From a virus, in IMG/VR virus record IMGVR_UViG_3300045988_104095, positions 1 to 39,568 of that record: a DNA stretch of 39,568 nt, one strand, 5' to 3'. Shown here one piece after another: positions 1 to 39,568 of the stretch (the first letter of the stretch is position 1; each line of letters begins with the position of its first letter). A program made the position numbers and the translations under genes. Below the pieces are notes generated by a model. The model had not been told where the DNA came from. It saw nothing but the letters and a program-made list of their open reading frames with translations, and did no database searches.

Positions 1-55
1 GAACCACGGTATTATTAACAATGTACCAATTAACCGACGTTTGGAGGTTGTACAC
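1..55. repeat. Terminal direct repeat, copy 1 of 2. Exact duplicate of 39514..39568, consistent with the overlap of a circular assembly.
   Basis: Bases 1-55 and 39514-39568 read identically (gaaccacggtattattaacaatgtaccaattaaccgacgtttggaggttgtacac). A minus-strand reading frame continues in phase across the implied junction 39513|1. Confidence 0.95.
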
Positions 56-1750
56 ATGTCCAAAAAATTCACGGAATCGCACTTCGCTCACGCGGCTAAG
101 GCCGTATCCGAAGGCAAGCGCCTCATTCAAATCGCAAAAGAGATCGGGTTTTCCGCCGACATCATCAGCAAGCACCTTCGGAAGCGAGGAATAGAAATCC
201 CCGTTTACCGCCGCACGGGCGATCGCATCCAGCTGCCCGAGGATGAAATCGTCACCATGTACCAAAGCGGACAATCCGAGCAGGCTATTGCCAAGCATTT
301 CAACGTTGCCCGTCATGCCATCCGACGAAGGCTCGAAAGAGCTGGGATCAAAATGCGCGGGATTCAAGAGGCACAGCTTTTGCGTTTTGCTCAAGCTTCT
401 GAAGAAGCTCGAAAAGCGATCACAAAGGCCGCTAATCTTGCCGTCACTGGAATTACTTGGCCGCACAATGAACGCGTCCGATGGGCGCAATCCCGAGAGC
501 AAACGGGCAAAGTCGGCCGCTTCGGCAAAGGAGAGGCCGAATTTGCCACATACCTGACTCAGCTCGGCATAGACTTCGTTCGTCAGAAGGCCGTAGACGT
601 CTATAACGTCGACTTCGCCGTCGGCCCCGTCGCCGTGGAATTGACCTGCGGAACCCTCAAATACCGAGGCGGGAACGCCGTCGAGAACAAGCGCATCAAA
701 AAGCTCCTCGAATGTGGGTACAACCCAATCTGCGTTGAGTTCTCTGATGAGGGAGCAATCTGTCCGCTTTTTATGGATCAAATAATCTCCCTTGTCGAGA
801 AGGCGTACAGGCTTCCACCCTTTAAGCGTGAGTACTGGGTGATTCGGTGTCGCACTACACACTGTGCCGTCGTCCGTAATGAACTCGGCCAATTTTCCCG
901 TGTAGAGACGCCGATACAGCTTCATTGGGAATGGAAGATCGTTAAGCTTTGATTCCCCAACAAAACACCCCGGCAACTCCCCGGGCAGTACGTAGCGCCC
1001 AACATCGCTGTCGTACAGGCCTTTTTTTAGGTCGAACTTTTTGCCGTCCATCGCCTTGTGCGTCTCGCGGCTCGTGTGCTTGCCGGGTACGTGAATCCAT
1101 TCGCCCTGTTCAACGCCAACCTCTAAATCGTTCGCGCGGCACAGGGCTTCGGTCGCCTTATTGCACTGATCGCGAGCAATGAAGTCCGCCCGGCGCTGTG
1201 TGATGTCGTAGCGCTTAGATAACTCGGACTTAAGCCCCGCCACGTCTCGCCCGTCGGTCACAGCCCGCATGACAAGCCCCTCGACCTCCTGAAGGTATCG
1301 GGAGCTGATGGACTTGATAAGCGACGTGTTGGCGTTCACAAGCGCGTCAAAAGCGTCTTGCGAAATCTGCCCTTTGTCAAAACGAAGGTCGAACGCCTCG
1401 AACCCCGAAGCCCGAAGCGCTGAGTTCTGCGCCCGGTCGACGTGGTCGCGCGTCTTCCTTACGAACCAGTCCGCCGTGTCTTCGGCAAAGTCCTGCGAAT
1501 ATTCTTCCCACTTCTTGCGCATCCGATCAATGATCTTTTGCAAGCGCTCGGCAGGGGACTCGGCCCTTGCGTCCTTCGCAATCCGCGGCTCTACCTTGCG
1601 ATAAAGCCCCTCAAGCTCTTTGGCGACGTCTTGCGCCATCTGACGCACGAGCGACCGCAGTTTGCTCGCGTACGCCTTCCGAAGCCCTGCATTAGGCCGC
1701 ACGGCTCGGATACGCACGTCAGTAGACTGCGCCCGCCTTGTCGCTGTCAT
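1..1750 (-). CDS. Head morphogenesis protein precursor (Mu gpF / SPP1 gp7 family): N-extein 1750..968 plus intein 967..1. The gene continues across the circular junction and ends at 39452.
   Basis: Absent from the ORF track because the frame has no stop before the window edge. By hand translation, ATG at 1750 follows GGAGGA after a 5-nt spacer. The product starts MTATRRAQSTDVRIRAVRPNAGLRKAYASKL and continues ...RYDITQRRADFIARDQCNKATEALCRANDLEVGVEQGEWIHVPGKHTSRETHKAMDGKKFDLKKGLYDSDVGRYVLPGELPG. This is the Mu_F-type C-terminal region, found immediately downstream of the portal gene. I checked every in-frame triplet from 1750 to 1 and found no stop. Confidence 0.85.
   Translation of the reverse strand, partial: MTATRRAQSTDVRIRAVRPNAGLRKAYASKLRSLVRQMAQDVAKELEGLYRKVEPRIAKDARAESPAERLQKIIDRMRKKWEEYSQDFAEDTADWFVRKTRDHVDRAQNSALRASGFEAFDLRFDKGQISQDAFDALVNANTSLIKSISSRYLQEVEGLVMRAVTDGRDVAGLKSELSKRYDITQRRADFIARDQCNKATEALCRANDLEVGVEQGEWIHVPGKHTSRETHKAMDGKKFDLKKGLYDSDVGRYVLPGELPGCFVGESKLNDLPFPMKLYRRLYTGKLAEFITDDGTVCSATPNHPVLTLKGWKPVRLLDKGDYLIHKKRTDCSLIRELNADWVVPTFEELFDALVLDGVPASVFEGSAGQFHGDGADGEVDVIDVYGLLTNEVYAELSQVCGKFGLSFAEAADFARLLSGLRPSDAFIVRPSNSSDGKISGLCDRFSSFFRSLSKTQKLCLLNPAHFDPSSFEPSSDGMTGNVEMLGNSLLGLSALVHGDDFILGQLDAIARAAVNGDFYSSLPKVLADDVGGKPDLFCDLNEALAFGYGLSRVSEVRFREFFGHVYNLQTSVNWYIVNNTVV
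56..952 (+). CDS. Homing-endonuclease-like protein (298 aa) with two HTH motifs and a Vsr/DUF559-like PD-(D/E)xK-type nuclease domain, encoded antisense inside the intein
   Basis: ATG at 56 follows GGAGG (43-47) after an 8-nt spacer. Two HTH-like segments: GKRLIQIAKEIGFSADIISKHLRKRGI and GQSEQAIAKHFNVARHAIRRRLERAGI. EAEFATYLTQLGIDFVRQKAVDVYNVDFAVGPVAVELTCG...NKRIKKLLECGYNPICVEF follows the DUF559/Vsr-like layout (E..L...G..F.RQ....Y.VDF....VAVE..G....R...L...G). This frame has mostly C/G-ending codons and purine-rich first positions. Confidence 0.75.
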   Translation: MSKKFTESHFAHAAKAVSEGKRLIQIAKEIGFSADIISKHLRKRGIEIPVYRRTGDRIQLPEDEIVTMYQSGQSEQAIAKHFNVARHAIRRRLERAGIKMRGIQEAQLLRFAQASEEARKAITKAANLAVTGITWPHNERVRWAQSREQTGKVGRFGKGEAEFATYLTQLGIDFVRQKAVDVYNVDFAVGPVAVELTCGTLKYRGGNAVENKRIKKLLECGYNPICVEFSDEGAICPLFMDQIISLVEKAYRLPPFKREYWVIRCRTTHCAVVRNELGQFSRVETPIQLHWEWKIVKL

Positions 1751-3206
1751 CGCGCTCCTCCGTGGTCGTGCTGCTCATTTGGCCGAACGGGTCTTCAGGA
1801 GCACCCGGGGCCTCACCCTCAAGGTCGCCAAAGGGATGATCCTTGGCATTACTCAACGCCATGCGCACCTCGTCCTCTGAGAGCACGCCGCGATCAAGGT
1901 AGACGGCGGCCGTGTCGGCCATCATCTTCTTGACCTCTGCCGTCGTGCGCTCGTCATCTTCGTCGAGTGAGCAGAATTCAAAGCTAAGGCTAGGATCAAT
2001 GTCGCCAAAGAGATTGATCTGCAGAATGCGCAGTATCTCTTCAAGCGGGCGCCGCAGAATCTTCTCCTGCCGCGTGGCGATTAAGTCGGCCTGTAGCTTG
2101 ATGTCGCTCTCGCCCGTGGCGTTAAAGCCCGAAGGCGACAGCCCGAGCGTCTTCACCACGCCGCTTTGGTTGACGGACACCACGAACTCAAGCGACTGGC
2201 GCACAATGTCCGTCAGGCCGGTAATCGGCGTGTTGACCTGAACGAAGTCTTCTTTGTCCTTGTCGAGGAGGCCAACGCCGTTATTGTCGCGGAACTTCGC
2301 AAAGAACTTCACGCGGTCGCTCACAGGTTGCCACGACTTGCGAGCAAAGAGCTGAGCGCCCAAATCGGTTTTAATGAAGCTCGTCGAGAACTTTGTCAGA
2401 AGCGTGTTCACTTCCTCGCGGTTCTTGCGGAAGTGCGTCACGTAGTCCGAAAGCAACTGCGCCTGAGCGATGCCGAAAAAGTTGTACGAGGGTTTGAGTA
2501 AGTCCGGTACCTCGTTTTCCACAAGGCGGATCAGGCGCGACGCGTGCACCGCCGTGCCCATGATGTAGAACACAGCGGGCTTGTAAAAGTCTTCTTTCAG
2601 CGGGTCGGACGCGTTAAAGCTCTGCGGCGTCGTAAAGATCGGATCAATCACACGGAACGATACGCGGTCTTTAAGCTCCGTCGATCGTGCCGTCTTGTTG
2701 AGTACTTCGTCCGGCTTGGCGTGCCCCGTGTCAACAAACAGGAAGGCGCCGCCCATCAGACCCATAGTCGTGAGCGCCTTGTAAAGCGTATCGCGCAAGC
2801 CGATGCGGTCAATCTCTTCCTCTAGTGCCTTCTTTCGCTTGTCGTCGTCACACTTGATTTCAATCCACGCCCGCAGCATCTCATCGGTTCGTGTTTGAAT
2901 GCACAGGCGAATCAGCGCATCCTGCGAAAGCTGTTGCAAAACGCCGTAGCCGACAAAGCTGACAAGGCTTGAAATCGCAGACCATTCGAACTTAGGCACG
3001 ATGCCGCCAGCAAAAGCCGCGTCCATGGCGCCGTCAAGCTGTTTGTAGTGCGCTTTTGTCCCTGCGAGTGACCGCGCGGGCTTAAGCAGTTCGCGAATGT
3101 CCTTTTCCTGCGGGATCGCGTCGACCACCGTTGTGGTGCCGTCGTATTCGCCGGTGACCTCAAATCCAGAGGTCGGGCGTTTCGTCTTCCGAGATTTTGA
3201 AGCCAT
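1719..3206 (-). CDS. Portal protein
   Basis: A 495-aa ORF immediately downstream of the large terminase and upstream of the Mu gpF-like gene. Size and position are typical of portals. Confidence 0.8.
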   Translation of the reverse strand: MASKSRKTKRPTSGFEVTGEYDGTTTVVDAIPQEKDIRELLKPARSLAGTKAHYKQLDGAMDAAFAGGIVPKFEWSAISSLVSFVGYGVLQQLSQDALIRLCIQTRTDEMLRAWIEIKCDDDKRKKALEEEIDRIGLRDTLYKALTTMGLMGGAFLFVDTGHAKPDEVLNKTARSTELKDRVSFRVIDPIFTTPQSFNASDPLKEDFYKPAVFYIMGTAVHASRLIRLVENEVPDLLKPSYNFFGIAQAQLLSDYVTHFRKNREEVNTLLTKFSTSFIKTDLGAQLFARKSWQPVSDRVKFFAKFRDNNGVGLLDKDKEDFVQVNTPITGLTDIVRQSLEFVVSVNQSGVVKTLGLSPSGFNATGESDIKLQADLIATRQEKILRRPLEEILRILQINLFGDIDPSLSFEFCSLDEDDERTTAEVKKMMADTAAVYLDRGVLSEDEVRMALSNAKDHPFGDLEGEAPGAPEDPFGQMSSTTTEERDDSDKAGAVY

Positions 3207-4374
3207 AACCGCGAGCCTTTATGTAATCGGATAGGCTATACCTAAGTCCGTCAATTATATGATTGTTTTTATCTAAGACAACTGGCAGAACCTCACCAGT
3301 CAGTCTATCCGTTTTGTAAGCGTAAAGCCTGAACTCGTCCGCCGTGTGCACACATCGCGGGTCGATAACGACCTTGTCAAAGCTACGGATAAAGCTAATG
3401 CCTTCCTCGATGCTCTCGGGCCATTTCTCAGCGCCCTCGATGTTGAATCCGTGGCGTTTCAGATAGCTGATTGTCTCAGGCCGAGCGCAGTCCGCCTTAA
3501 TTGGCCATTTCGTTGACTCGGGCACCGAACGATACAGCTGAGGCAATTCGTCGATTTCAACCCCGACGCCGTAAGCCTCATAGTCAATATACAGGCGATT
3601 ATCCAAGATGAAGCACCGAACCAGCGTCGACGGGTCACGCGCAAAGCCGAAGTCGGCGCCGAAGAAGAGCCGGTCGGCCTGTTTCCAAAGATCCTCCGGA
3701 ATCGCCTCGACGACGTACTTGCCGCGGAAAATCTGCGCCCCGCTGATGGTGAGCGGGAAGCCCTCCCAAATGTGCTGATACTTCTCGTAATCGTTCGCCT
3801 TGTCCCATTCCATCTGCTCGCGCAAGACTTCAGGAAAATACGGGTTATCCGTATAGTTGACCTTGCGAACGTAGGCGCCCGGCGGGGGTGCCTCTAGGAA
3901 ATCATTCGTTGGGTCGTCGACCGTGAGCGGGTTGAACGTCAGCCACAATTCCGACCCGGGTTTGCGGATTGTCGGAATCAGCACGTCCCACGACTTGCGC
4001 GAGACGGACGACGCTTCTTCAATCCAACAGATGTCAATGCCTTCCTTTGACCTAATCGAGTTCTCATTACGCAACAGGCCGGAGAAGATAAAGCGGCTCC
4101 CGGTGCGCTTATGCTCAATCTCCGACTCCTTGAAGTCGAACCGGTCAAATAAGCCCATGCGCTCCGCGGTATCTTTCAGCGTCTGATACGACGAATCGCG
4201 GATAGAGTTCTGCACCTCTCGACAGCACAAAATCCGCACCCGCCCGAAATCTGCCATAGCGATAAGCGCGCGTGCAACTGCCCAGCTCTTGCCACTTCCT
4301 CGGCCGCCGTAAAAGACTTTGTATCGGTGCGGCCTATACAGTTCCGCGAATGGGTCGGCGCTTCCGTTTGTCAT
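3160..4374 (-). CDS. terL: Terminase large subunit (PBSX/Terminase_3-like)
   Basis: Walker A motif YGGRGSGKSWAVARALI near the N-terminus. 404 aa, following terS with a 4-nt overlap. Confidence 0.9.
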   Translation of the reverse strand: MTNGSADPFAELYRPHRYKVFYGGRGSGKSWAVARALIAMADFGRVRILCCREVQNSIRDSSYQTLKDTAERMGLFDRFDFKESEIEHKRTGSRFIFSGLLRNENSIRSKEGIDICWIEEASSVSRKSWDVLIPTIRKPGSELWLTFNPLTVDDPTNDFLEAPPPGAYVRKVNYTDNPYFPEVLREQMEWDKANDYEKYQHIWEGFPLTISGAQIFRGKYVVEAIPEDLWKQADRLFFGADFGFARDPSTLVRCFILDNRLYIDYEAYGVGVEIDELPQLYRSVPESTKWPIKADCARPETISYLKRHGFNIEGAEKWPESIEEGISFIRSFDKVVIDPRCVHTADEFRLYAYKTDRLTGEVLPVVLDKNNHIIDGLRYSLSDYIKARGYGFKISEDETPDLWI

Positions 4375-36202: not shown

Positions 36203-36640
36203 TTATTCCTTGTGTGAATTCTTTTGAGGCATCGGGTCGTCGCCCGTCTTTTCGTCGGCGTGGTCAATCGCGAAATTCAAGCCCTGCGCCTCGCTCTTCT
36301 TTTCCTTAATGCGCCCGGATGCGAACCACGGGCCATAAGCCTGACCGAGTTCGGCCTTCACCTGCTCCCATAACGCACGATCGACAACCGTCACGCCGTA
36401 ACCACCGGCAGGCAGTGCGCCGCCCGAAGCGTTCGCGAGATATACGCCGTTGCCGTTAATGGTGACGCTCTTGCCGTTACTCAGCGTGAACTTCTGAGAG
36501 ATGCGGGAGCGGAAAAGGATCGTGACTGTATCCGACGTCTTGGCAGTGTTGCCGACGCTCACCGTGGCGCCGTCTTCGCTGATTACCTTGACTTTCGGAG
36601 CGCTCGGAGCACGCTTTACTTTAGTTTCCTGATTGGCCAT
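36203..36640 (-). CDS. Hypothetical head-associated protein (145 aa)
   Basis: ORF track. Follows the major capsid gene. Confidence 0.55.
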   Translation of the reverse strand: MANQETKVKRAPSAPKVKVISEDGATVSVGNTAKTSDTVTILFRSRISQKFTLSNGKSVTINGNGVYLANASGGALPAGGYGVTVVDRALWEQVKAELGQAYGPWFASGRIKEKKSEAQGLNFAIDHADEKTGDDPMPQKNSHKE

Positions 36641-36665
36641 TTTTTCTGTTTCCTTAAAAATTGAA

Positions 36666-36689
36666 CGGGGAGAGCGTCAGCCCTCCCCG
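36666..36689 (-). terminator. Hairpin downstream of the major capsid gene; possibly a partial terminator
   Basis: CGGGGAG (36666-72) pairs with CTCCCCG (36683-89) around a 10-nt loop. On the minus strand it is followed by TTCAATTTTTAAGG. Confidence 0.4.
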
Positions 36690-36731
36690 GGGCATGATCA
36701 ATCTGACAACCTTGTCAAATTGATCCGGTCA

Positions 36732-37757
36732 TTACGACTTCTGAATACCCGTCATCGTCGCAACAGCGAACGGACGGAACAGCAGACAGCCGGTCGTAGA
36801 CGATGCCCACTTCTGAGACATGGAAGAGTGCTCGACGAGAACCGGATAGGTCTTCAGTTTTTCGAGGAAGCCGAATTTAGCCGTCGGCCGCCCTGCGATT
36901 TCCGTCGCGATCAGCATGGCTTTGCACACGCCTTCTTCATCCTGAAGCTGCGGGAGAGAAATAATCTCAAGGCTCGGGAAGAAGCCCTTAAGGGTCTGCA
37001 GAACCGGCGCGACGCCGAGCGTCGTCGTCTTGGCGAGCTGTCCCATAATGGACGGCGGCACCACCAGCTTGAGTTTGCTGTTAAAGCTCACATAGCCATT
37101 GGACGCGGCGGCGATCTGATTGAACATCGAAAGGATGTCGTTATAAATCTCGTTCGCGTCCTTGTCGGCCCATGCCGTTTTATTCGTGCCGACGGTAGCG
37201 GGCGACAGTGCGGCGGGCAGTGCCGGGTCGTTCAGCAGGCCATAAATAGACATACCGCTCACGCCAAACAAGTTGTAATTGTTGGCGTCGATTTCGATCG
37301 CGGTTGCCGCGGCGCGCTGTTTTTCAGACAGCAGATTGATCTTCTGAGCCGTCGCGATGTCTTCTTCCAAGTCGCCGATCTGAATAAAGGTCTGGAACTT
37401 GTAGGTTTCGCGGGTCACCTGCTCGATGTTGGCTTCAGACAGCAGGCCGCGACCGTAGTCGCTGTATGCCGTCGTCTGACCAACGTATTCAACGGCCGGG
37501 AACATCGTCTGAACGTCCTTCCAGTCGCCGCGCTTTTCTTCGGAGAAAATCTCCGTAGAGTTGCGGGGAGCCTGAAGGATTTCGACAATCTCAGGGCTAT
37601 AGTAGGTTGCAAACAGAGCAGGGGTCTGCACGTTGGCGACGGTCTGCAAAGCAGCATCCATCGCGATCTCGGCAGTGCCGTTCTGAGTCGGAAGAAAACG
37701 CCCGTTGCCCTTGCACAGGTCAAAGCCGAGGCGTTCCATGGTTTCACTTCGTGCCAT
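36732..37757 (-). CDS. Major capsid protein
   Basis: 341 aa in the capsid position, after the scaffold and a small structural protein. No lysine/arginine bias of the antisense type. Confidence 0.75.
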   Translation of the reverse strand: MARSETMERLGFDLCKGNGRFLPTQNGTAEIAMDAALQTVANVQTPALFATYYSPEIVEILQAPRNSTEIFSEEKRGDWKDVQTMFPAVEYVGQTTAYSDYGRGLLSEANIEQVTRETYKFQTFIQIGDLEEDIATAQKINLLSEKQRAAATAIEIDANNYNLFGVSGMSIYGLLNDPALPAALSPATVGTNKTAWADKDANEIYNDILSMFNQIAAASNGYVSFNSKLKLVVPPSIMGQLAKTTTLGVAPVLQTLKGFFPSLEIISLPQLQDEEGVCKAMLIATEIAGRPTAKFGFLEKLKTYPVLVEHSSMSQKWASSTTGCLLFRPFAVATMTGIQKS

Positions 37758-37781
37758 TTCAAATCCACCTTCAAAAAAAGA

Positions 37782-38297
37782 TTAAGACGCGGCCATCGGA
37801 GGCACGACATTGGGCTGCTGGTTGCTGATCAGCACAAGGGACTTCGCTTCCGTGCCCAGCACATTTTCAACGACGAAATTCGTCATCGTGTAGCCATCCT
37901 TCTTGGCGTTGCCCGTCTGCGTCGTGACAGAGCCGTCAGTCTGCGAGGCGAGCACGTAATCGCCCACCTTGGCGCTAGCGTTCTGCGCGACAACCCAAAA
38001 CTTGCCATTCGTGGCGATCTGCGCGAAGGCGCCTTTAGGAACGACCATCGCATTCGCAGCAGTCACTTCGCCCGTGATGTACTGGCGGGTGTAAACGACG
38101 ATGCCGCGCAGGATGCCGGTTCCGGCCTTGTTGACCTTCGTGCCGCCGGCGGTGCCGTCTGCGAAGCAGAAATTACCAACCGTCAGATCAGAGGCGGCCT
38201 GATAGGTCTGCGCCGTGTAGTGCGTTTCAACAACGCTCGCGGGCATACCCGCAATCGCGGGGGCAAGCCCCACATTTACTTTGGACTGGAGAGCCAT
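37782..38297 (-). CDS. Head decoration/cement-like structural protein (171 aa)
   Basis: Assigned by position between the scaffold and capsid genes. Gly/Ala/Thr/Val-rich, beta-type sequence. Confidence 0.5.
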   Translation of the reverse strand: MALQSKVNVGLAPAIAGMPASVVETHYTAQTYQAASDLTVGNFCFADGTAGGTKVNKAGTGILRGIVVYTRQYITGEVTAANAMVVPKGAFAQIATNGKFWVVAQNASAKVGDYVLASQTDGSVTTQTGNAKKDGYTMTNFVVENVLGTEAKSLVLISNQQPNVVPPMAAS

Positions 38298-38309
38298 TTG
38301 CCCATCTCC

Positions 38310-39470
38310 TTATCGAATGAACTGCTTCAAAAAATCCTCGTCGCTCTTGGGCGCCGAATCCATTGCACCGCTCGGGGCGGCGGTCTTGACCGACTGCAAA
38401 GCGGCAAAGACGTGTTTGGCGGCGCTGGCCGGGACGTTCTTGACGCCCATCGCCTTGACGGCGTCGAGATAGATCGCGTCGGCGCTGTCGTATGCCATCG
38501 GGTCGACGTTGCCCAGCACGGACTTGACTTCGGTCGCCGCGCGGTACTGAGCAGACAACTGCCCGCGCACCGTCTTGGCAATCATGGCCGCGTCCATGGC
38601 GCCGCCTTCGGGCTTGGCTTCGCCCGCGTCTTCGTCTTCGGCCTTGGCTTCGTCCTTAGGCTCGTCAGCGTCTTCGGCGCCTTCGGGCTTGGCAGGCTCT
38701 TCGTCTCGCGTGCCTTCCGTTTCCTGCACGGCCGCATCGGCCTTGCTTTCTTCGAACTTCGCGTGAGATTCAGCAAAAGCGCGCACCAGTGCGTCCTTCT
38801 GCTCGGGCGTCAGTTCAACGCCTGACTCGTCGATAGTCTTGCGTGCAAACTCCGTGAAGTCGTCACACGCCCCATCAACCTTTGTTTCTTCACTCATGGT
38901 GATTCCTCTAGGTTTTTCGTCAGAGACATAGCAGTAGGGAGCTCTACCCTCGTGAACAAGTGCAACGTGATTGCAAGCGAGATCGCGCATCACGAAGTCA
39001 TAAGCAAGCCCGTCCGGAGTCTCCCCGGGCGTGAAATCGGGCTTATATCGGTATCCGCAACTGAGGTCGCGCAGTGTGCCGTCCTCAATCGCGGAAATTG
39101 CTTTTTCATCCCACACGCTCAGCGCGTTGGTTATGTACGGCGGCTCCCACTTCGCGCTGGTGCCGACGGTGCCAACGCGAAGCTCCTTGTTCGGGTGCTC
39201 CGCGCTGTCAAACTTGTGTTCGATCAAAAGCGGCACGCCGTTGAACGTCGACAGTGCCGCCTTAAGCTCGTCAGGGTTACGCCAGCCGTAATAGATTCGG
39301 TCAGGGTCTAACTGCCGCTCTTCCCATCCCGGAATCTCGCGCCCGTAGTATGGCGCCACGTGGTCGCGGGTTAAATTCGATGTCTTGACCTGCAAAAAGC
39401 CGTTTTTGTCGCGCGTCCGCGCTGACTCCATAACGACCTTCTCATCAAGCGCTAAGAGTTCTTTTTCCAT
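38310..39470 (-). CDS. Prohead scaffold/protease-like protein (DUF2213-like N-domain with acidic C-terminal half)
   Basis: LQVKTSNLTRDHVAPYYGREIPG ... GVPLLIEHK ... LSCGYRY ... ACNHVALVHEGRA. This is followed by a D/E/K/A-rich region. The gene comes first after the Mu gpF-like gene. Confidence 0.65.
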   Translation of the reverse strand: MEKELLALDEKVVMESARTRDKNGFLQVKTSNLTRDHVAPYYGREIPGWEERQLDPDRIYYGWRNPDELKAALSTFNGVPLLIEHKFDSAEHPNKELRVGTVGTSAKWEPPYITNALSVWDEKAISAIEDGTLRDLSCGYRYKPDFTPGETPDGLAYDFVMRDLACNHVALVHEGRAPYCYVSDEKPRGITMSEETKVDGACDDFTEFARKTIDESGVELTPEQKDALVRAFAESHAKFEESKADAAVQETEGTRDEEPAKPEGAEDADEPKDEAKAEDEDAGEAKPEGGAMDAAMIAKTVRGQLSAQYRAATEVKSVLGNVDPMAYDSADAIYLDAVKAMGVKNVPASAAKHVFAALQSVKTAAPSGAMDSAPKSDEDFLKQFIR

Positions 39471-39568
39471 AGCTTTCTACTCAATAGTGGACGATACGTA
39501 CATTGGCAATTGTGAACCACGGTATTATTAACAATGTACCAATTAACCGACGTTTGGAGGTTGTACAC
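39452..39568 (-). CDS. 3' end of the same head morphogenesis gene: last intein residues (...GHVYNLQTSVNWYIVNNTVVHN) plus the C-extein CQCTYRPLLSRKLWKKNS and stop
   Basis: Continuing the frame from position 1 (= 39514) gives H (39514..39512), N (39511..39509), then C Q C T Y R P L L S R K L W K K N S and TAG at 39454..39452. Joined to the N-extein this restores PGELPG-CQCT, the conserved C-x-C end of Mu_F-type proteins. Confidence 0.85.
   Translation of the reverse strand: MYNLQTSVNWYIVNNTVVHNCQCTYRPLLSRKLWKKNS
39503..39531 (+). promoter_or_regulatory. Candidate sigma70-type promoter for the antisense endonuclease gene (TTGGCA-N17-TATTAA)
   Basis: TTGGCA lies at 39503..39508 and TATTAA at 39526..39531 (= 13..18 of the left copy), about 25 nt upstream of the GGAGG/ATG of CDS 56..952. 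It sits in a locally AT-rich stretch. Confidence 0.35.
39514..39568. repeat. Terminal direct repeat, copy 2 of 2 (duplicate of 1..55)
   Basis: Exact 55-nt identity with the window start. Confidence 0.95.

What the first reader, a model, noticed from the sequence alone, without database searches (positions are those of the whole stretch)
1..967. 324-aa intein inserted in the conserved C-x-C tail motif of a Mu gpF/SPP1 gp7-type head morphogenesis protein
The minus frame reads ...DGKKFDLKKGLYDSDVGRYVLPGELPG | CFVGESKL...ATPNHPVLTLKGWKPVRLLDKGDYL...FGHVYNLQTSVNWYIVNNTVVHN | CQCTYRPL.
- Blocks A, B, F and G of a class-1 intein are all present: Cys1, TxxH, terminal HN and a +1 Cys.
- Removing the element restores PG..PG-CQC-T..P, the conserved end of Mu_F-family proteins.

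Inteins are best known in replication, repair, terminase and nucleotide-metabolism genes. A virion morphogenesis protein is an unusual host, and here the +1 nucleophile is the first Cys of the protein's own conserved motif.
Basis: partly seen in the sequence, partly recalled or inferred. Interest (0 to 1): 0.8.

Follow-up and report, generated by a model that had tools for sequence, protein, structure and literature searches.

The report
MuF intein with antisense homing endonuclease
A phage head-assembly gene is interrupted by a self-splicing protein insert (intein) whose middle is really a DNA-cutting "homing" enzyme gene written on the opposite strand; this layout was described in 2025 for actinobacteriophages, and this is a new example from another phage group.

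Summary
The window is a circular 39,513-bp contig, so the gene wraps around its ends. A 603-aa minus-strand precursor is a Mu F/SPP1 gp7 head-morphogenesis protein with a 324-aa class-1 intein placed just before its conserved C-x-C motif. Removing the intein restores a 279-aa protein that passes Pfam Phage_Mu_F.

The host is not unusual. A Mu F intein was published in 2004, GenBank phage records annotate such inteins, and over 200 database proteins resemble this precursor, most listed ones carrying both Pfam domains.

Window 56..952 (+) is a 298-codon gene, codon-for-codon antisense to intein residues 7-304. It encodes two HTH domains and a Vsr-like nuclease.
- Its model is confident (mean pLDDT 86.7), and the best PDB match is the I-Bth0305I homing endonuclease.
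- The sense reading of intein residues 105-285 is mostly low-confidence and not conserved.
- Third-codon-position variation follows the antisense frame in the centre and the sense frame in the splicing blocks.
- Both frames are open in 17 loci studied in detail and in IMG/VR contigs (GC 36-72%).
- A free-standing homologue lies beside an intein-less Mu F gene in Acinetobacter phages.

Antisense Vsr-like endonuclease inteins in minor capsid and terminase genes were reported in a 2025 preprint. This is a new member of a known kind.

The parts
968..1750 (-). N-extein: Mu F/SPP1 gp7-type head morphogenesis protein, residues 1-261 (ATG at 1750, overlapping the end of the portal gene).
   Evidence: Translation. 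Pfam PF04233 E 8.6e-13 and phrog_324 'head morphogenesis' E 2.3e-61 on the spliced product. AlphaFold pLDDT is about 90 over most of this part.
656..967 (-). Intein N-terminal splicing subdomain (intein aa 1-104): Cys1 at 967..965, block A CFVGESKL, block B ATPNHPVLT.
   Evidence: Cys1, Thr40 and His43 are invariant in 92 sequences. pLDDT is mostly 76-94. PDB fold matches are mostly inteins, such as Ssp DnaB, Mtu RecA and Npu DnaB, with probability up to 1.0. For aa 7-75 the most variable codon position is the sense third position.
113..655 (-). Intein 'linker' (intein aa 105-285): an open sense frame that must be translated but shows no sign of being a domain. It is the reverse complement of codons 20-200 of the endonuclease gene.
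   Evidence: pLDDT is mostly 35-50 with a 92-sequence alignment. Sense BLOSUM62 conservation is about 0 for aa 131-230, against about 1.0-1.1 for the antisense frame. Nucleotide identity is lower at sense position 1 (0.30) than at position 3 (0.44), so variation follows the antisense frame. No Pfam endonuclease hit in the sense frame.
1..112 (-). Intein C-terminal splicing subdomain, first part (aa 286-323, with only the first base of codon 323): block F FGHVYNLQ and block G up to ...NNTVV.
   Evidence: Translation. pLDDT is mostly 77-94. The sense frame dominates conservation in aa 305-324.
39509..39513 (-). Last five bases of the intein (the rest of His323 and Asn324), reached by wrapping around the circular contig.
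   Evidence: The terminal Asn is invariant.
39452..39508 (-). C-extein CQCTYRPLLSRKLWKKNS plus the TAG stop. The +1 Cys is 39508..39506. It overlaps the start of the next gene (the 38310..39470 ORF, which I take to be the protease/scaffold gene).
   Evidence: The +1 Cys is invariant. Intein-less alleles read ...N|CRCV..P.
56..952 (+). Antisense homing-endonuclease gene (298 codons plus TGA), codon-for-codon complementary to intein aa 304..7. By model: HTH1 74..184, HTH2 239..340, helical linker, Vsr-like nuclease core 533..808, C-terminal beta hairpin 830..946.
   Evidence: ORF. Pfam HTH_7 above its cut-off, weak DUF559. Homologues called Vsr endonuclease or PF18741. AlphaFold mean pLDDT 86.7. 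Foldseek top hit 3r3p, the I-Bth0305I catalytic domain (E 6e-4, probability 1.0). Profile against PDB sequences: 3r3p E 1.3e-6. E160, Y183, D186 and E195 are invariant. Zero TTA/CTA/TCA sense codons across the overlap in the 15 loci tested.
43..58 (+). Translation start of the endonuclease gene: Shine-Dalgarno GGAGG (43..47), an 8-nt spacer, then ATG (56..58). All of it is built from the reverse complement of the block F codons H-V-Y-N-L-Q.
   Evidence: Sequence. The block F His codon is CAT (= ATG) in 15 of 15 loci, including GC-rich ones. The Leu codon is CTC (= GAG) in 13 of 14 loci that have Leu there.
39514..39568 (.). 55-nt terminal repeat identical to 1..55. It is an assembly signature of a circular contig and duplicates intein codons 305-323.

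Best explanation
The insert is a contiguous class-1 intein in the Mu F-type head morphogenesis gene of an uncharacterised tailed phage. It sits immediately before the first Cys of the conserved C-x-C motif.

Translating the minus strand gives a 603-aa precursor. The two halves of the splicing (Hint) domain are intein aa 1-104 and aa 286-324. They are expected to fold together, excise the 324 aa and join ...ELPG to CQCTY..., giving the 279-aa Mu F protein.

The 181 residues between the two halves are not an in-frame endonuclease domain. They are a tolerated, probably unstructured linker that exists because the opposite strand carries a separate 298-codon gene (56..952, +). That gene encodes two N-terminal HTH DNA-binding modules and a Vsr-like (I-Bth0305I-like) nuclease.

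The two genes are in exact codon-for-codon antisense register.
- The endonuclease start codon is the complement of the block F His codon.
- Its Shine-Dalgarno sequence is the complement of the block F Asn-Leu-Gln codons.
- Its stop codon is the complement of intein Ser6.
- Its last ~100 codons therefore overlap the folded N-terminal splicing subdomain.

The endonuclease most likely cuts intein-less Mu F alleles at or near the C-x-C-coding site. Repair then copies intein and endonuclease gene together (homing), while splicing keeps the invaded essential gene functional.

Shown here: both ORFs; the fold assignments; selection on each frame in different segments; the insertion site; the wide distribution; a free-standing homologue beside the same target.

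Inferred, not shown: splicing, expression of the antisense gene, nuclease activity, target site, ongoing mobility.
For: Extein and insertion site
- The spliced product passes PF04233 across the junction.
- Intein-less homologues P0097 and P0098 read PGQPIN|CRC and PGELPN|CRC.

Intein
- PF14890 E 7.7e-6.
- Invariant C1, T..H, terminal N and C+1 in 92 sequences.
- Canonical junctions in 17 loci.
- The model's PDB matches are mostly inteins.

The antisense gene is real
- An ORF in the same register in all 16 loci first checked, and later in L018 and L019.
- Zero TTA/CTA/TCA sense codons in 272-359 codons, against 1.2-6.5% in the flanking codons of the same gene. P per locus is 2e-2 to 1e-9 in 15 loci.
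- The frame also stays open through the splicing subdomain in loci with GC below 0.53 (joint P about 3e-21).
- The antisense translation is better conserved than the sense one: for Aaphi23, 39.7% identity and 219 bits against 32.1% and 157 bits.
- The codon-position pattern flips to the antisense frame in intein aa 131-230, whichever frame guides the alignment.
- Window against its 95%-identical relative: only 24 of 298 overlapped codons changed, against 56 of 261 extein codons. Linker changes are radical in the sense frame and conservative in the antisense frame.
- AlphaFold mean pLDDT 86.7 for the antisense product, against mostly 35-50 for the sense linker.
- Best PDB match is the I-Bth0305I homing endonuclease.
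- HTH_7 is above its Pfam cut-off.

Start signals
- CAT in 15 of 15 loci and CTC in 13 of 14 loci.

Mobility-type evidence
- Acinetobacter phage IME285 has an intein-less Mu F ending ...LPMCKCRAK.
- A homologous endonuclease gene lies convergent and 7 nt overlapping, and its opposite strand is full of stops.
- Only 3 of 82 related phage records hold the whole stretch with it.
- Its arrival replaced the last ~60 Mu F codons, including the C-x-C region.
- Shorter inteins that keep only the FHGDG remnant exist.
- The same intein/endonuclease pair occurs at a second Mu F site, in a Phage_min_cap2 protein and in a terminase large subunit.
- All 80 IMG/VR loci analysed have an endonuclease-like ORF and an opposite-strand ORF matching the intein profile; 56 hold the complete pair.
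Against: - The window's own intein is below the Pfam gathering score (26.2 against 35.8 bits).
- No promoter was found for the antisense gene, and it would be transcribed against the late operon.
- The full EDxHD catalytic motif of I-Bth0305I is not kept. The position that aligns with its catalytic His lies in GTLKYRGG in the window protein, so activity cannot be assumed.
- All close relatives of the window gene (40% identity or more) carry the intein. Nothing here shows recent homing in this lineage.
- The low divergence of the overlap could reflect double constraint or recent transfer.
- Antisense conservation of the endonuclease tail (intein aa 7-75) is no higher than the by-product level seen in intein aa 305-324, which lies outside the endonuclease ORF.
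Confidence: 0.82

Rival explanations
1. Conventional large intein: the central ~180 residues are an in-frame homing-endonuclease or other folded domain, and the + strand ORF is a meaningless by-product.
For: The sense frame is open throughout. phrog_15127 'head protein' aligns over all 324 residues. The sense motif FHGD is invariant or nearly so in 92 sequences.
Against: - The sense frame has no endonuclease family hit.
- pLDDT is mostly 35-50 with 92 sequences.
- Sense BLOSUM62 conservation is about 0 and the most variable codon position is sense position 1.
- FHGD..GE(V/I)D is simply the complement of the nuclease motif YN.DF..G..AVE.
- The antisense product folds confidently and matches a homing endonuclease.
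- A homologue exists with no open frame opposite it.
Confidence: 0.03
2. The antisense ORF stays open only through codon usage or chance. It is a GC-type artefact of the codon-for-codon frame and encodes no protein.
For: In the same window a 730-codon + strand ORF lies antisense to the capsid genes and has no family hit. The major capsid gene and the gene next to it have no TTA/CTA/TCA codons. Long open antisense frames therefore do arise in this genome without coding.
Against: - The ORF is open in genomes of 36-43% GC, where the three forbidden codons make up 4-7% of flanking codons.
- HTH_7 is above its cut-off.
- Profile match to 3r3p, E 1.3e-6.
- Mean pLDDT 86.7.
- Conserved start signals.
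- The antisense frame is better conserved than the sense frame.
Confidence: 0.02
3. The architecture is as described, but in this lineage the endonuclease is no longer a working homing enzyme. It may be inactive, decaying or put to another use such as DNA binding or regulation, and the intein is inherited vertically as a fixed passenger.
For: - The aligned catalytic His of the EDxHD motif is not kept.
- All relatives at 40% identity or more carry the intein.
- No promoter was found.
- The 2025 preprint also found vertical-looking inheritance for several Vsr-like cases.
- Decayed versions exist elsewhere.
Against: - The ORF is intact.
- Family-invariant E160, Y183, D186 and E195 are present.
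- Changes against the 95% relative are conservative in the antisense frame.
- An unselected antisense ORF should quickly gain stops.
Confidence: 0.25
4. The insert does not splice. It is tolerated as a surface loop in Mu F, like the in-frame 'ShiLan' insertion that hides an out-of-frame HNH gene in phage methylases.
For: There is a precedent for an in-frame insertion with a hidden endonuclease and no splicing domain (PMC11855218).
Against: All splicing residues are invariant, the Hint fold is predicted, and the insertion splits the most conserved motif of the Mu F domain.
Confidence: 0.03

Closest known systems
Inteins with anti-sense VSR-like homing endonucleases in actinobacteriophage minor capsid, terminase, DNA polymerase and thymidylate synthase genes (Gosselin, Arsenault & Gogarten, bioRxiv 10.1101/2025.01.02.630785)
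   Same: Both are contiguous inteins with the endonuclease ORF on the antisense strand. Both have a Vsr-like nuclease with a helical N-terminal region and a match to PDB 3R3P. Both have a minor capsid (IPR006528, the head morphogenesis domain) as host. The preprint notes that its minor-capsid inteins all had non-canonical endonucleases. Gordonia phages Fosterous and Malisha (L010, L011) are homologues of the window element.
   Different: - The window element comes from a phage with no near DNA match among GenBank phages.
- Its closest cultured relatives infect Vibrio and Aggregatibacter (listed as Haemophilus phage Aaphi23); further relatives infect Klebsiella, Edwardsiella, Salmonella and Escherichia.
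[quoted passage not shown]
- Here the ORF covers intein aa 7-304, and the start codon and SD lie in block F.
Intein in Mu F (gp30) of the Mu-like prophage of Methylococcus capsulatus Bath (Ward et al. 2004, PMC517821); annotated inteins in E. coli phages Snoke and KMB36
   Same: The host protein family is the same. [quoted passage not shown] The Snoke record annotates PF14890 and a Cys...Cys intein, and I found the antisense ORF there.
   Different: I did not examine the M. capsulatus sequence, so whether it has an antisense ORF is untested. KMB36 has the element at a different Mu F site, TSTI|CRARDG.
I-Bth0305I / EDxHD (Vsr-like) homing endonucleases and 'fractured genes' (Dassa et al. 2009, PMC2677866; Taylor et al. 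2011, PMC3239194)
   Same: An N-terminal DNA-binding region plus a C-terminal Vsr-like nuclease. This is the best structural and profile match. The family is associated with phages and inteins and has free-standing relatives.
   Different: - In fractured genes, as described there, the broken gene keeps its original orientation and locus. The endonuclease gene lies between two split-intein halves, and its 3' end often overlaps the start of the downstream split-intein gene, so they share a strand.
- Here the intein is contiguous and the gene is antisense and fully overlapped.
- The N-terminal modules are HTH rather than NUMOD-like.
- The His of EDxHD is not conserved.
Anti-sense LAGLIDADG endonuclease inteins (Synechocystis DnaX and others; Gorbalenya 1998 and Gogarten 2002, as cited in the 2025 preprint)
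   Same: The principle is the same: the endonuclease is encoded on the strand opposite an intein.
   Different: A different nuclease family and non-phage hosts. I did not read the original papers.
ShiLan insertion with a hidden out-of-frame HNH endonuclease in phage methylases (Arsenault et al. 2025, PMC11855218)
   Same: An in-frame insertion whose own reading is filler while another frame encodes the homing enzyme.
   Different: ShiLan has no detectable splicing domain. [quoted passage not shown] Here there is a complete Hint domain and the gene is antisense.

Membership tests
Class-1 intein (Hint domain) | N-terminal Cys/Ser nucleophile (block A) | tested here: met
   Cys1 at 967..965, invariant in 92 sequences.
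Class-1 intein (Hint domain) | Block B TxxH | tested here: met
   T40-P-N-H43 (ATPNHPVLT). Thr and His are invariant.
Class-1 intein (Hint domain) | Blocks F and G with a terminal Asn and a +1 Cys/Ser/Thr | tested here: met
   FGHVYNLQ...VVHN|C. Asn and the +1 Cys are invariant. The penultimate His is present here, while relatives have S, K, R or C.
Class-1 intein (Hint domain) | Profile match (Pfam PF14890) at the curated threshold | tested here: inconclusive
   E 7.7e-6 but 26.2 bits against a 35.8-bit cut-off for the window sequence. Many homologues carry a precomputed PF14890 hit.
Class-1 intein (Hint domain) | Hint fold | tested here: met
   In the AlphaFold model of the precursor, pLDDT is mostly 76-94 for intein aa 1-104 and mostly 77-94 for aa 286-324. 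The Foldseek PDB hits are mostly inteins, with probability up to 1.0 but E-values of only about 1e-2 because the query is the whole 603-aa model.
Class-1 intein (Hint domain) | Protein splicing activity | not testable with these tools
   Needs expression and detection of the spliced product.
Phage Mu F / SPP1 gp7 head morphogenesis protein (PF04233) | Profile match above the curated threshold, including the C-terminal C-x-C motif | tested here: met
   The spliced product scores 49.5 bits against a 29.6 cut-off, with profile positions 1-111 of 112 spanning the junction. phrog_324 E 2.3e-61. Gene order terminase-portal-MuF, followed by the neighbouring capsid-region ORFs.
EDxHD / I-Bth0305I-type (Vsr-like) homing endonuclease | Vsr-like nuclease fold at the C-terminus with an N-terminal DNA-binding region | tested here: met
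   Foldseek 3r3p E 6e-4, probability 1.0, TM (target) 0.66. Profile against the 3r3p sequence E 1.3e-6. Two HTH modules at the N-terminus.
EDxHD / I-Bth0305I-type (Vsr-like) homing endonuclease | Conserved E, D, H, D catalytic residues | tested here: inconclusive
   E160 and D186 align with the first E and D and are invariant. E195 is also invariant. The His position aligns within GTLKYRGG in the window protein and is not conserved across the family, although some members keep GGNWHG. The crystal construct carries D196A and H213A, and I took that into account when reading the alignment.
EDxHD / I-Bth0305I-type (Vsr-like) homing endonuclease | Site-specific cleavage of the element-free allele | not testable with these tools
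   The evidence is only circumstantial. A free-standing homologue sits next to the Mu F C-x-C site, with a replaced target region, and only 3 of 82 related phage records hold the whole stretch with it.
Intein with an anti-sense VSR-like homing endonuclease (Gosselin et al. 2025 preprint) | A contiguous intein with the endonuclease ORF on the opposite strand inside the intein | tested here: met
   ORF 56..952 (+) lies inside intein 1..967 (-), in codon-for-codon register.
Intein with an anti-sense VSR-like homing endonuclease (Gosselin et al. 2025 preprint) | The secondary ORF lies outside the splicing domain ('typically', per the preprint) | tested here: not met
   The ORF overlaps intein aa 7-104 (N-terminal splicing subdomain) and aa 286-304 (block F) in the window. 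Its stop maps to intein aa 2-23 in all 17 loci. The authors describe this as a tendency rather than a defining feature, so it does not exclude membership.
Split intein / fractured gene (Dassa et al. 2009) | The host gene is broken into two ORFs, each carrying an intein half | tested here: not met
   A single uninterrupted 603-codon ORF.

The most novel reading that the evidence does not exclude
About 117 codons would encode two folded, functional protein segments at once on opposite strands: intein aa 7-104 and aa 286-304. On the sense strand these are the splicing domain. On the antisense strand they are the C-terminal half of the nuclease and its first helix. The endonuclease's ribosome-binding site and start codon are written into the catalytic block F.

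This would be one of the longest selection-maintained antiparallel dual-coding stretches known in a phage. It would tie splicing and homing together physically, so that neither can be lost or mutated independently. Antisense transcription through the late operon might also time endonuclease expression or modulate Mu F expression.

It would also explain why Mu F inteins were described as lacking an endonuclease.
Probability: 0.4. Interest if true: 0.65.

Novelty: new member of a known kind. Interest (0 to 1): 0.45.

Why it matters

The value lies in what the region adds to a recently described oddity, inteins whose homing endonuclease is encoded antisense.
- The arrangement is not confined to actinobacteriophages. 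It occurs in phages of Salmonella (Jersey-like), Escherichia, Klebsiella, Pseudomonas, Vibrio, Aggregatibacter and Helicobacter, and in IMG/VR contigs.
- The overlap is in strict codon-for-codon register, with start signals embedded in a catalytic intein block.
- Different segments are demonstrably selected in different frames.
- A free-standing relative sits beside the same target site.

Practical consequences:
- Gene callers either annotate one long 'head protein' or truncate Mu F, so they miss one of the two genes.
- Intein surveys will class these as endonuclease-less.
- The system is a clean natural test case for how a free-standing endonuclease and a mini-intein merge.

Tried and rejected
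- I first took the metagenomic homologue P0009 (L005) for a free-standing endonuclease gene, because the ORF listing showed no ORF opposite it. That was wrong. The sense ORF runs off the contig end and is hidden by the tool; translation shows a full intein.
- The search for related loci with the endonuclease alignment failed because no stretch was conserved enough. I replaced it with a degenerate DNA pattern scan.
- Sigma-70 promoter and terminator scans around the endonuclease start and through the intein found nothing useful.
- Single-sequence searches against PDB sequences gave only marginal hits. The profile search and the fold search were needed.
- Literature searches for 'MupF', for 'intein' with 'MuF', for 'antisense strand' and for 'opposite strand' gave nothing relevant. 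The Kelley 2016 mycobacteriophage intein paper does not mention the arrangement. The prior art surfaced only with 'actinobacteriophage'.
- A megablast of 23 kb of the window against GenBank phages found no match.
- I tested whether the free-standing Acinetobacter gene descends from an embedded one. I searched its opposite strand with the intein profile. The hit covers only the part that mirrors the endonuclease, plus a block-F-like HVHSL upstream of the ATG. Blocks A and B are absent. The result is inconclusive.
- The 730-codon antisense ORF over the capsid genes has no Pfam hit and is probably a codon-bias by-product.


Full report
**1. Is the observation there?**

Yes. The minus strand of 1..1750 reads an open frame that starts at ATG 1750 and overlaps the end of the portal gene. 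It runs through ...YVLPGELPG|CFVGESKL...ATPNHPVLTLKGWKPVRLLDKGDYL...FGHVYNLQTSVNWYIVNNTVV to position 2.

Positions 1..55 are identical to 39514..39568, so the window is a circular contig of 39,513 bp. The gene continues at 39513...VVHN|CQCTYRPLLSRKLWKKNS*, with the stop at 39454..39452.

**2. Host protein and insertion point**

- The spliced product matches Pfam Phage_Mu_F (E 8.6e-13, 49.5 bits against a 29.6-bit cut-off). Residues 154-266 align to profile positions 1-111 of 112, so the match runs across the junction at 261/262. It also matches phrog_324 'head morphogenesis' (E 2.3e-61).
- The upstream neighbours are small terminase, large terminase and portal. Downstream lie the 386-aa ORF that I take to be the protease/scaffold gene and a 341-aa ORF whose homologue in L004 carries a major-capsid Pfam domain.
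- Intein-less homologues read ...VLPGQPIN-CRC-VSVP and ...VWPGELPN-CRC-VAIP (P0097, P0098). The insert therefore sits exactly before the first Cys of the family's conserved C-x-C motif.

**3. The insert is an intein**

- Pfam Intein_splicing gives E 7.7e-6 (26.2 bits, below the 35.8-bit gathering score).
- In a 92-sequence alignment of relatives, Cys1, Thr and His of TxxH, the terminal Asn and the +1 Cys are invariant.
- All 17 loci examined in detail have junctions of the form x|C...(H/S/K/R/C)N|C.
- An AlphaFold model of the precursor (92 sequences) gives pLDDT of mostly 76-94 for intein aa 1-104 and mostly 77-94 for aa 286-324. Its PDB fold matches are mostly inteins, such as Ssp DnaB mini-intein, Mtu RecA and Npu DnaB, with probability up to 1.0.

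Cys1 together with the canonical blocks fits class 1.

**4.

The + strand holds an ORF at 41..952, with ATG at 56 (298 codons). It is not noise.

- *Family hits.* It hits HTH_7 above the Pfam cut-off, several other HTH families and, weakly, DUF559.
- *Homologous ORFs.* These lie opposite the intein in Vibrio phage PvVp04, Aggregatibacter phage Aaphi23 (listed as Haemophilus phage Aaphi23) and E. coli phage Snoke. They are found in further loci as well, always in the codon-for-codon antisense frame.
- *Stop avoidance.* An open antisense frame requires the sense frame to avoid TTA, CTA and TCA.
  - There are none in 272-359 intein codons per locus.
  - The same three codons make up 1.2-6.5% of the flanking codons of the same gene.
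  - P per locus is 2e-2 to 1e-9 in 15 loci with GC from 36% to 63%.
- *Conservation.* The antisense translation is better conserved than the sense one. For Aaphi23 it is 39.7% identity and 219 bits against 32.1% and 157 bits. For PvVp04 it is 182 against 161 bits.
- *Codon positions.* I compared all pairs among 16 loci.
  - In the exteins and in intein aa 1-75 and 305-324, the least conserved position is the sense third position.
  - In intein aa 131-230 it is the sense first position, which is the antisense third position (identity 0.30 against 0.44).
  - There, sense BLOSUM62 conservation is about 0 against 1.0-1.1 for the antisense frame.
  - The result is the same whether the sense or the antisense protein guides the alignment.
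- *A close relative.* Against a 95%-identical relative (L022), 56 of 261 extein codons differ, mostly at third positions. Only 24 of 298 overlapped codons differ. The linker changes are radical in the sense frame (Y>N, F>V, P>V, S>P) and conservative in the antisense frame (V>I, L>M, E>D, N>D).
- *Structure.*
  - AlphaFold folds the antisense product with mean pLDDT 86.7 from only 25 sequences.
  - The model has two three-helix HTH modules, a helical linker, an alpha/beta nuclease core and a C-terminal hairpin.
  - The sense reading of intein aa 105-285 has pLDDT of mostly 35-50 with 92 sequences.
- *Closest structure.*
  - The best PDB fold match is 3r3p, the catalytic domain of homing endonuclease I-Bth0305I (E 6e-4, probability 1.0).
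  - Next come a DUF559-like protein and paired/Tc3-type bipartite HTH domains.
  - A sequence profile also finds 3r3p (E 1.3e-6).
  - Database homologues carry the names 'very-short-patch-repair endonuclease' or PF18741.
  - E160, Y183, D186 and E195 are invariant.

**5. Geometry of the overlap**

Endonuclease residue k pairs with intein residue 305-k.
- The ATG (56..58) is the complement of the CAT codon of His304 in block F (GHVYNL).
- GGAGG (43..47) is the complement of the Asn-Leu-Gln codons.
- The TGA stop is the complement of the TCA codon of Ser6.

Across loci the block F His codon is CAT in 15 of 15, including genomes of 62-67% GC. The Leu codon is CTC in 13 of 14 loci that have Leu there. 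This points to selection on the start signals.

The endonuclease stop maps to intein aa 2-23 in all 17 loci, and most often to aa 6. The ORF therefore runs through the whole N-terminal splicing subdomain. For the loci with GC below 0.53, the joint chance of that stretch staying open is about 3e-21.

**6. Distribution and relatives**

- tblastn finds the intein and the endonuclease in 124 GenBank phage records each. These include Jersey-like Salmonella phages, Kagunavirus, Klebsiella, Pseudomonas, Gordonia, Vibrio and a Helicobacter prophage.
- The precursor family has 221 database members at E<1e-5. Most of the 120 listed carry both PF04233 and PF14890.
- A DNA pattern for the nuclease motif retrieved IMG/VR loci, of which I analysed 80.
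  - All have an endonuclease-like ORF and an opposite-strand ORF that matches the intein profile.
  - 56 hold the complete pair. The rest are cut by contig ends or have shorter inteins.
  - GC ranges from 37% to 72%.
- 47 of the 80 hit my own profile of the Mu F extein. Of the rest, one extein tested is a Phage_min_cap2 protein, one a terminase large subunit (phrog_2, E 5e-21) and two hit phrog_1522.
- Phage KMB36 carries the pair at a second Mu F site.
- Shorter inteins that retain only the FHGDG remnant exist (P0050, P0120), as expected for endonuclease decay.

**7. A free-standing relative at the same target**

In Acinetobacter phage IME285 the Mu F gene has no intein and ends ...LPMCKCRAKLIIEIP.... 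A 34%-identical endonuclease gene lies convergent with it and overlaps its end by 7 nt. The strand opposite that gene is full of stops.

Only 3 of 82 related phage records hold the whole stretch with it. I compared it with phage LZ35, which lacks the gene.
- The block that carries the endonuclease also replaced the last ~60 Mu F codons.
- That changed ...GIEINCRCRKK to ...AWLPMCKCRAK.
- Identity is 100% on one flank and 92.8% on the other.

This is the pattern expected of a free-standing homing endonuclease that targets the C-x-C-coding site and protects its own genome. It shows that the protein family exists without any overlapping frame.

**8. Mechanism**

*Shown:*
- two overlapping genes;
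- a complete splicing domain split by a non-conserved linker;
- a confidently folded Vsr-like endonuclease on the other strand;
- segment-specific selection.

*Inferred:*
- the precursor splices to give Mu F;
- the endonuclease is made from its own start in block F;
- it cuts intein-less alleles near the C-x-C site;
- repair copies the composite element.

*Uncertain:*
- No promoter was found.
- The catalytic His of the EDxHD motif is not conserved.
- All close relatives already carry the intein, so current mobility in this lineage is unproven.

**9. What is already known**

- An intein in Mu F of a Mu-like prophage was reported in 2004, with the remark that it 'lacks a recognizable endonuclease sequence' (PMC517821).
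- GenBank records annotate the intein in Snoke and KMB36.
- Vsr-like homing endonucleases were predicted in 'fractured genes' (PMC2677866), and I-Bth0305I was characterised (PMC3239194).
- A 2025 bioRxiv preprint (10.1101/2025.01.02.630785) goes furthest.
  - It reports an HHpred match to 3R3P.
  - It recalls earlier anti-sense LAGLIDADG cases.

The kind is therefore known. This window is a new member from a phage with no near DNA match among GenBank phages.

What this analysis adds, and what I did not find in the sections of that preprint I read:
- the spread well beyond actinophages;
- the strict codon register;
- the overlap with the splicing subdomain;
- the start signals inside block F;
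- the frame-specific selection;
- the free-standing relative beside the same target.

**10. Open points**

The origin and role of the endonuclease tail that overlaps the splicing subdomain are unresolved.
- Its conservation is no higher than the by-product level seen in intein aa 305-324, which lies outside the endonuclease ORF.
- Yet its frame stays open.
- It is modelled as a confident hairpin.
- The free-standing gene keeps a tail of similar length that still aligns to residue 280.

Noticed in passing
window 1..55 and 39514..39568: An identical 55-nt terminal repeat: the window is a complete circular contig of 39,513 bp. It has no tRNA genes and no near DNA match among 50,697 GenBank phage records.
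   Followed up: yes
window 36633..38825 (+): A 730-codon ORF lies codon-for-codon antisense to the 341-aa capsid gene, the adjacent 171-aa gene and part of the 386-aa gene next to them. The first two have no TTA/CTA/TCA codons in 512 codons, against about 1.5-1.8% in the portal and terminase genes. It has no Pfam hit and is probably a codon-bias by-product, though it is statistically odd.
   Followed up: partly
L016 (E. coli phage vB-Eco-KMB36, OR525703.1), sense ORF 1533..3524 (-): A homologous intein with an antisense endonuclease sits at a different Mu F site (TSTI|CRARDG) from the C-x-C site used in the related phage Snoke. The composite element seems to have switched site within one gene.
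   Followed up: partly
L069 (IMGVR_UViG_3300043174_000067, GC 71%): One giant ORF contains two inteins of this type. The first has a +1 Ser (…IVHN|SMQDE) and the second the usual …THN|CRC.
   Followed up: no
L019/L020 (GC 37%), about 3400..4100 (-): The N-terminal part of Mu F (a 140-aa gene) is in a different frame from the ORF that carries the rest of Mu F and the intein. This is so in two independent assemblies, which suggests a real frameshift or split gene rather than a sequencing error.
   Followed up: no
L009 (Acinetobacter phage vB_AbaM_IME285, MH853786.1) 395..1521: A free-standing homologue of the endonuclease lies convergent with an intein-less Mu F. Only 3 of 82 related phage records hold the whole stretch with it. 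Upstream of its ATG the opposite strand still reads a block-F-like ...NHVHSLM*, hinting that it may descend from an intein-embedded copy.
   Followed up: partly
L039, L027, L044, L049, L082 (IMG/VR): The same intein and antisense endonuclease interrupt a gene with a Walker-A motif, at ...FLN|CLTGDARV ... RN|CR.... The L039 extein matches the terminase large subunit family phrog_2 (E 5e-21).
   Followed up: partly
L021 (JGI Ga0642623_19320, GC 70%) 2501..3307: The intein and endonuclease sit in an extein context that differs from the usual junction (…DGPQ|CVMPGG … VAN|CGWTSHDD). A Mu F-like AHPNCQRE motif lies further downstream. The extein was not identified.
   Followed up: no
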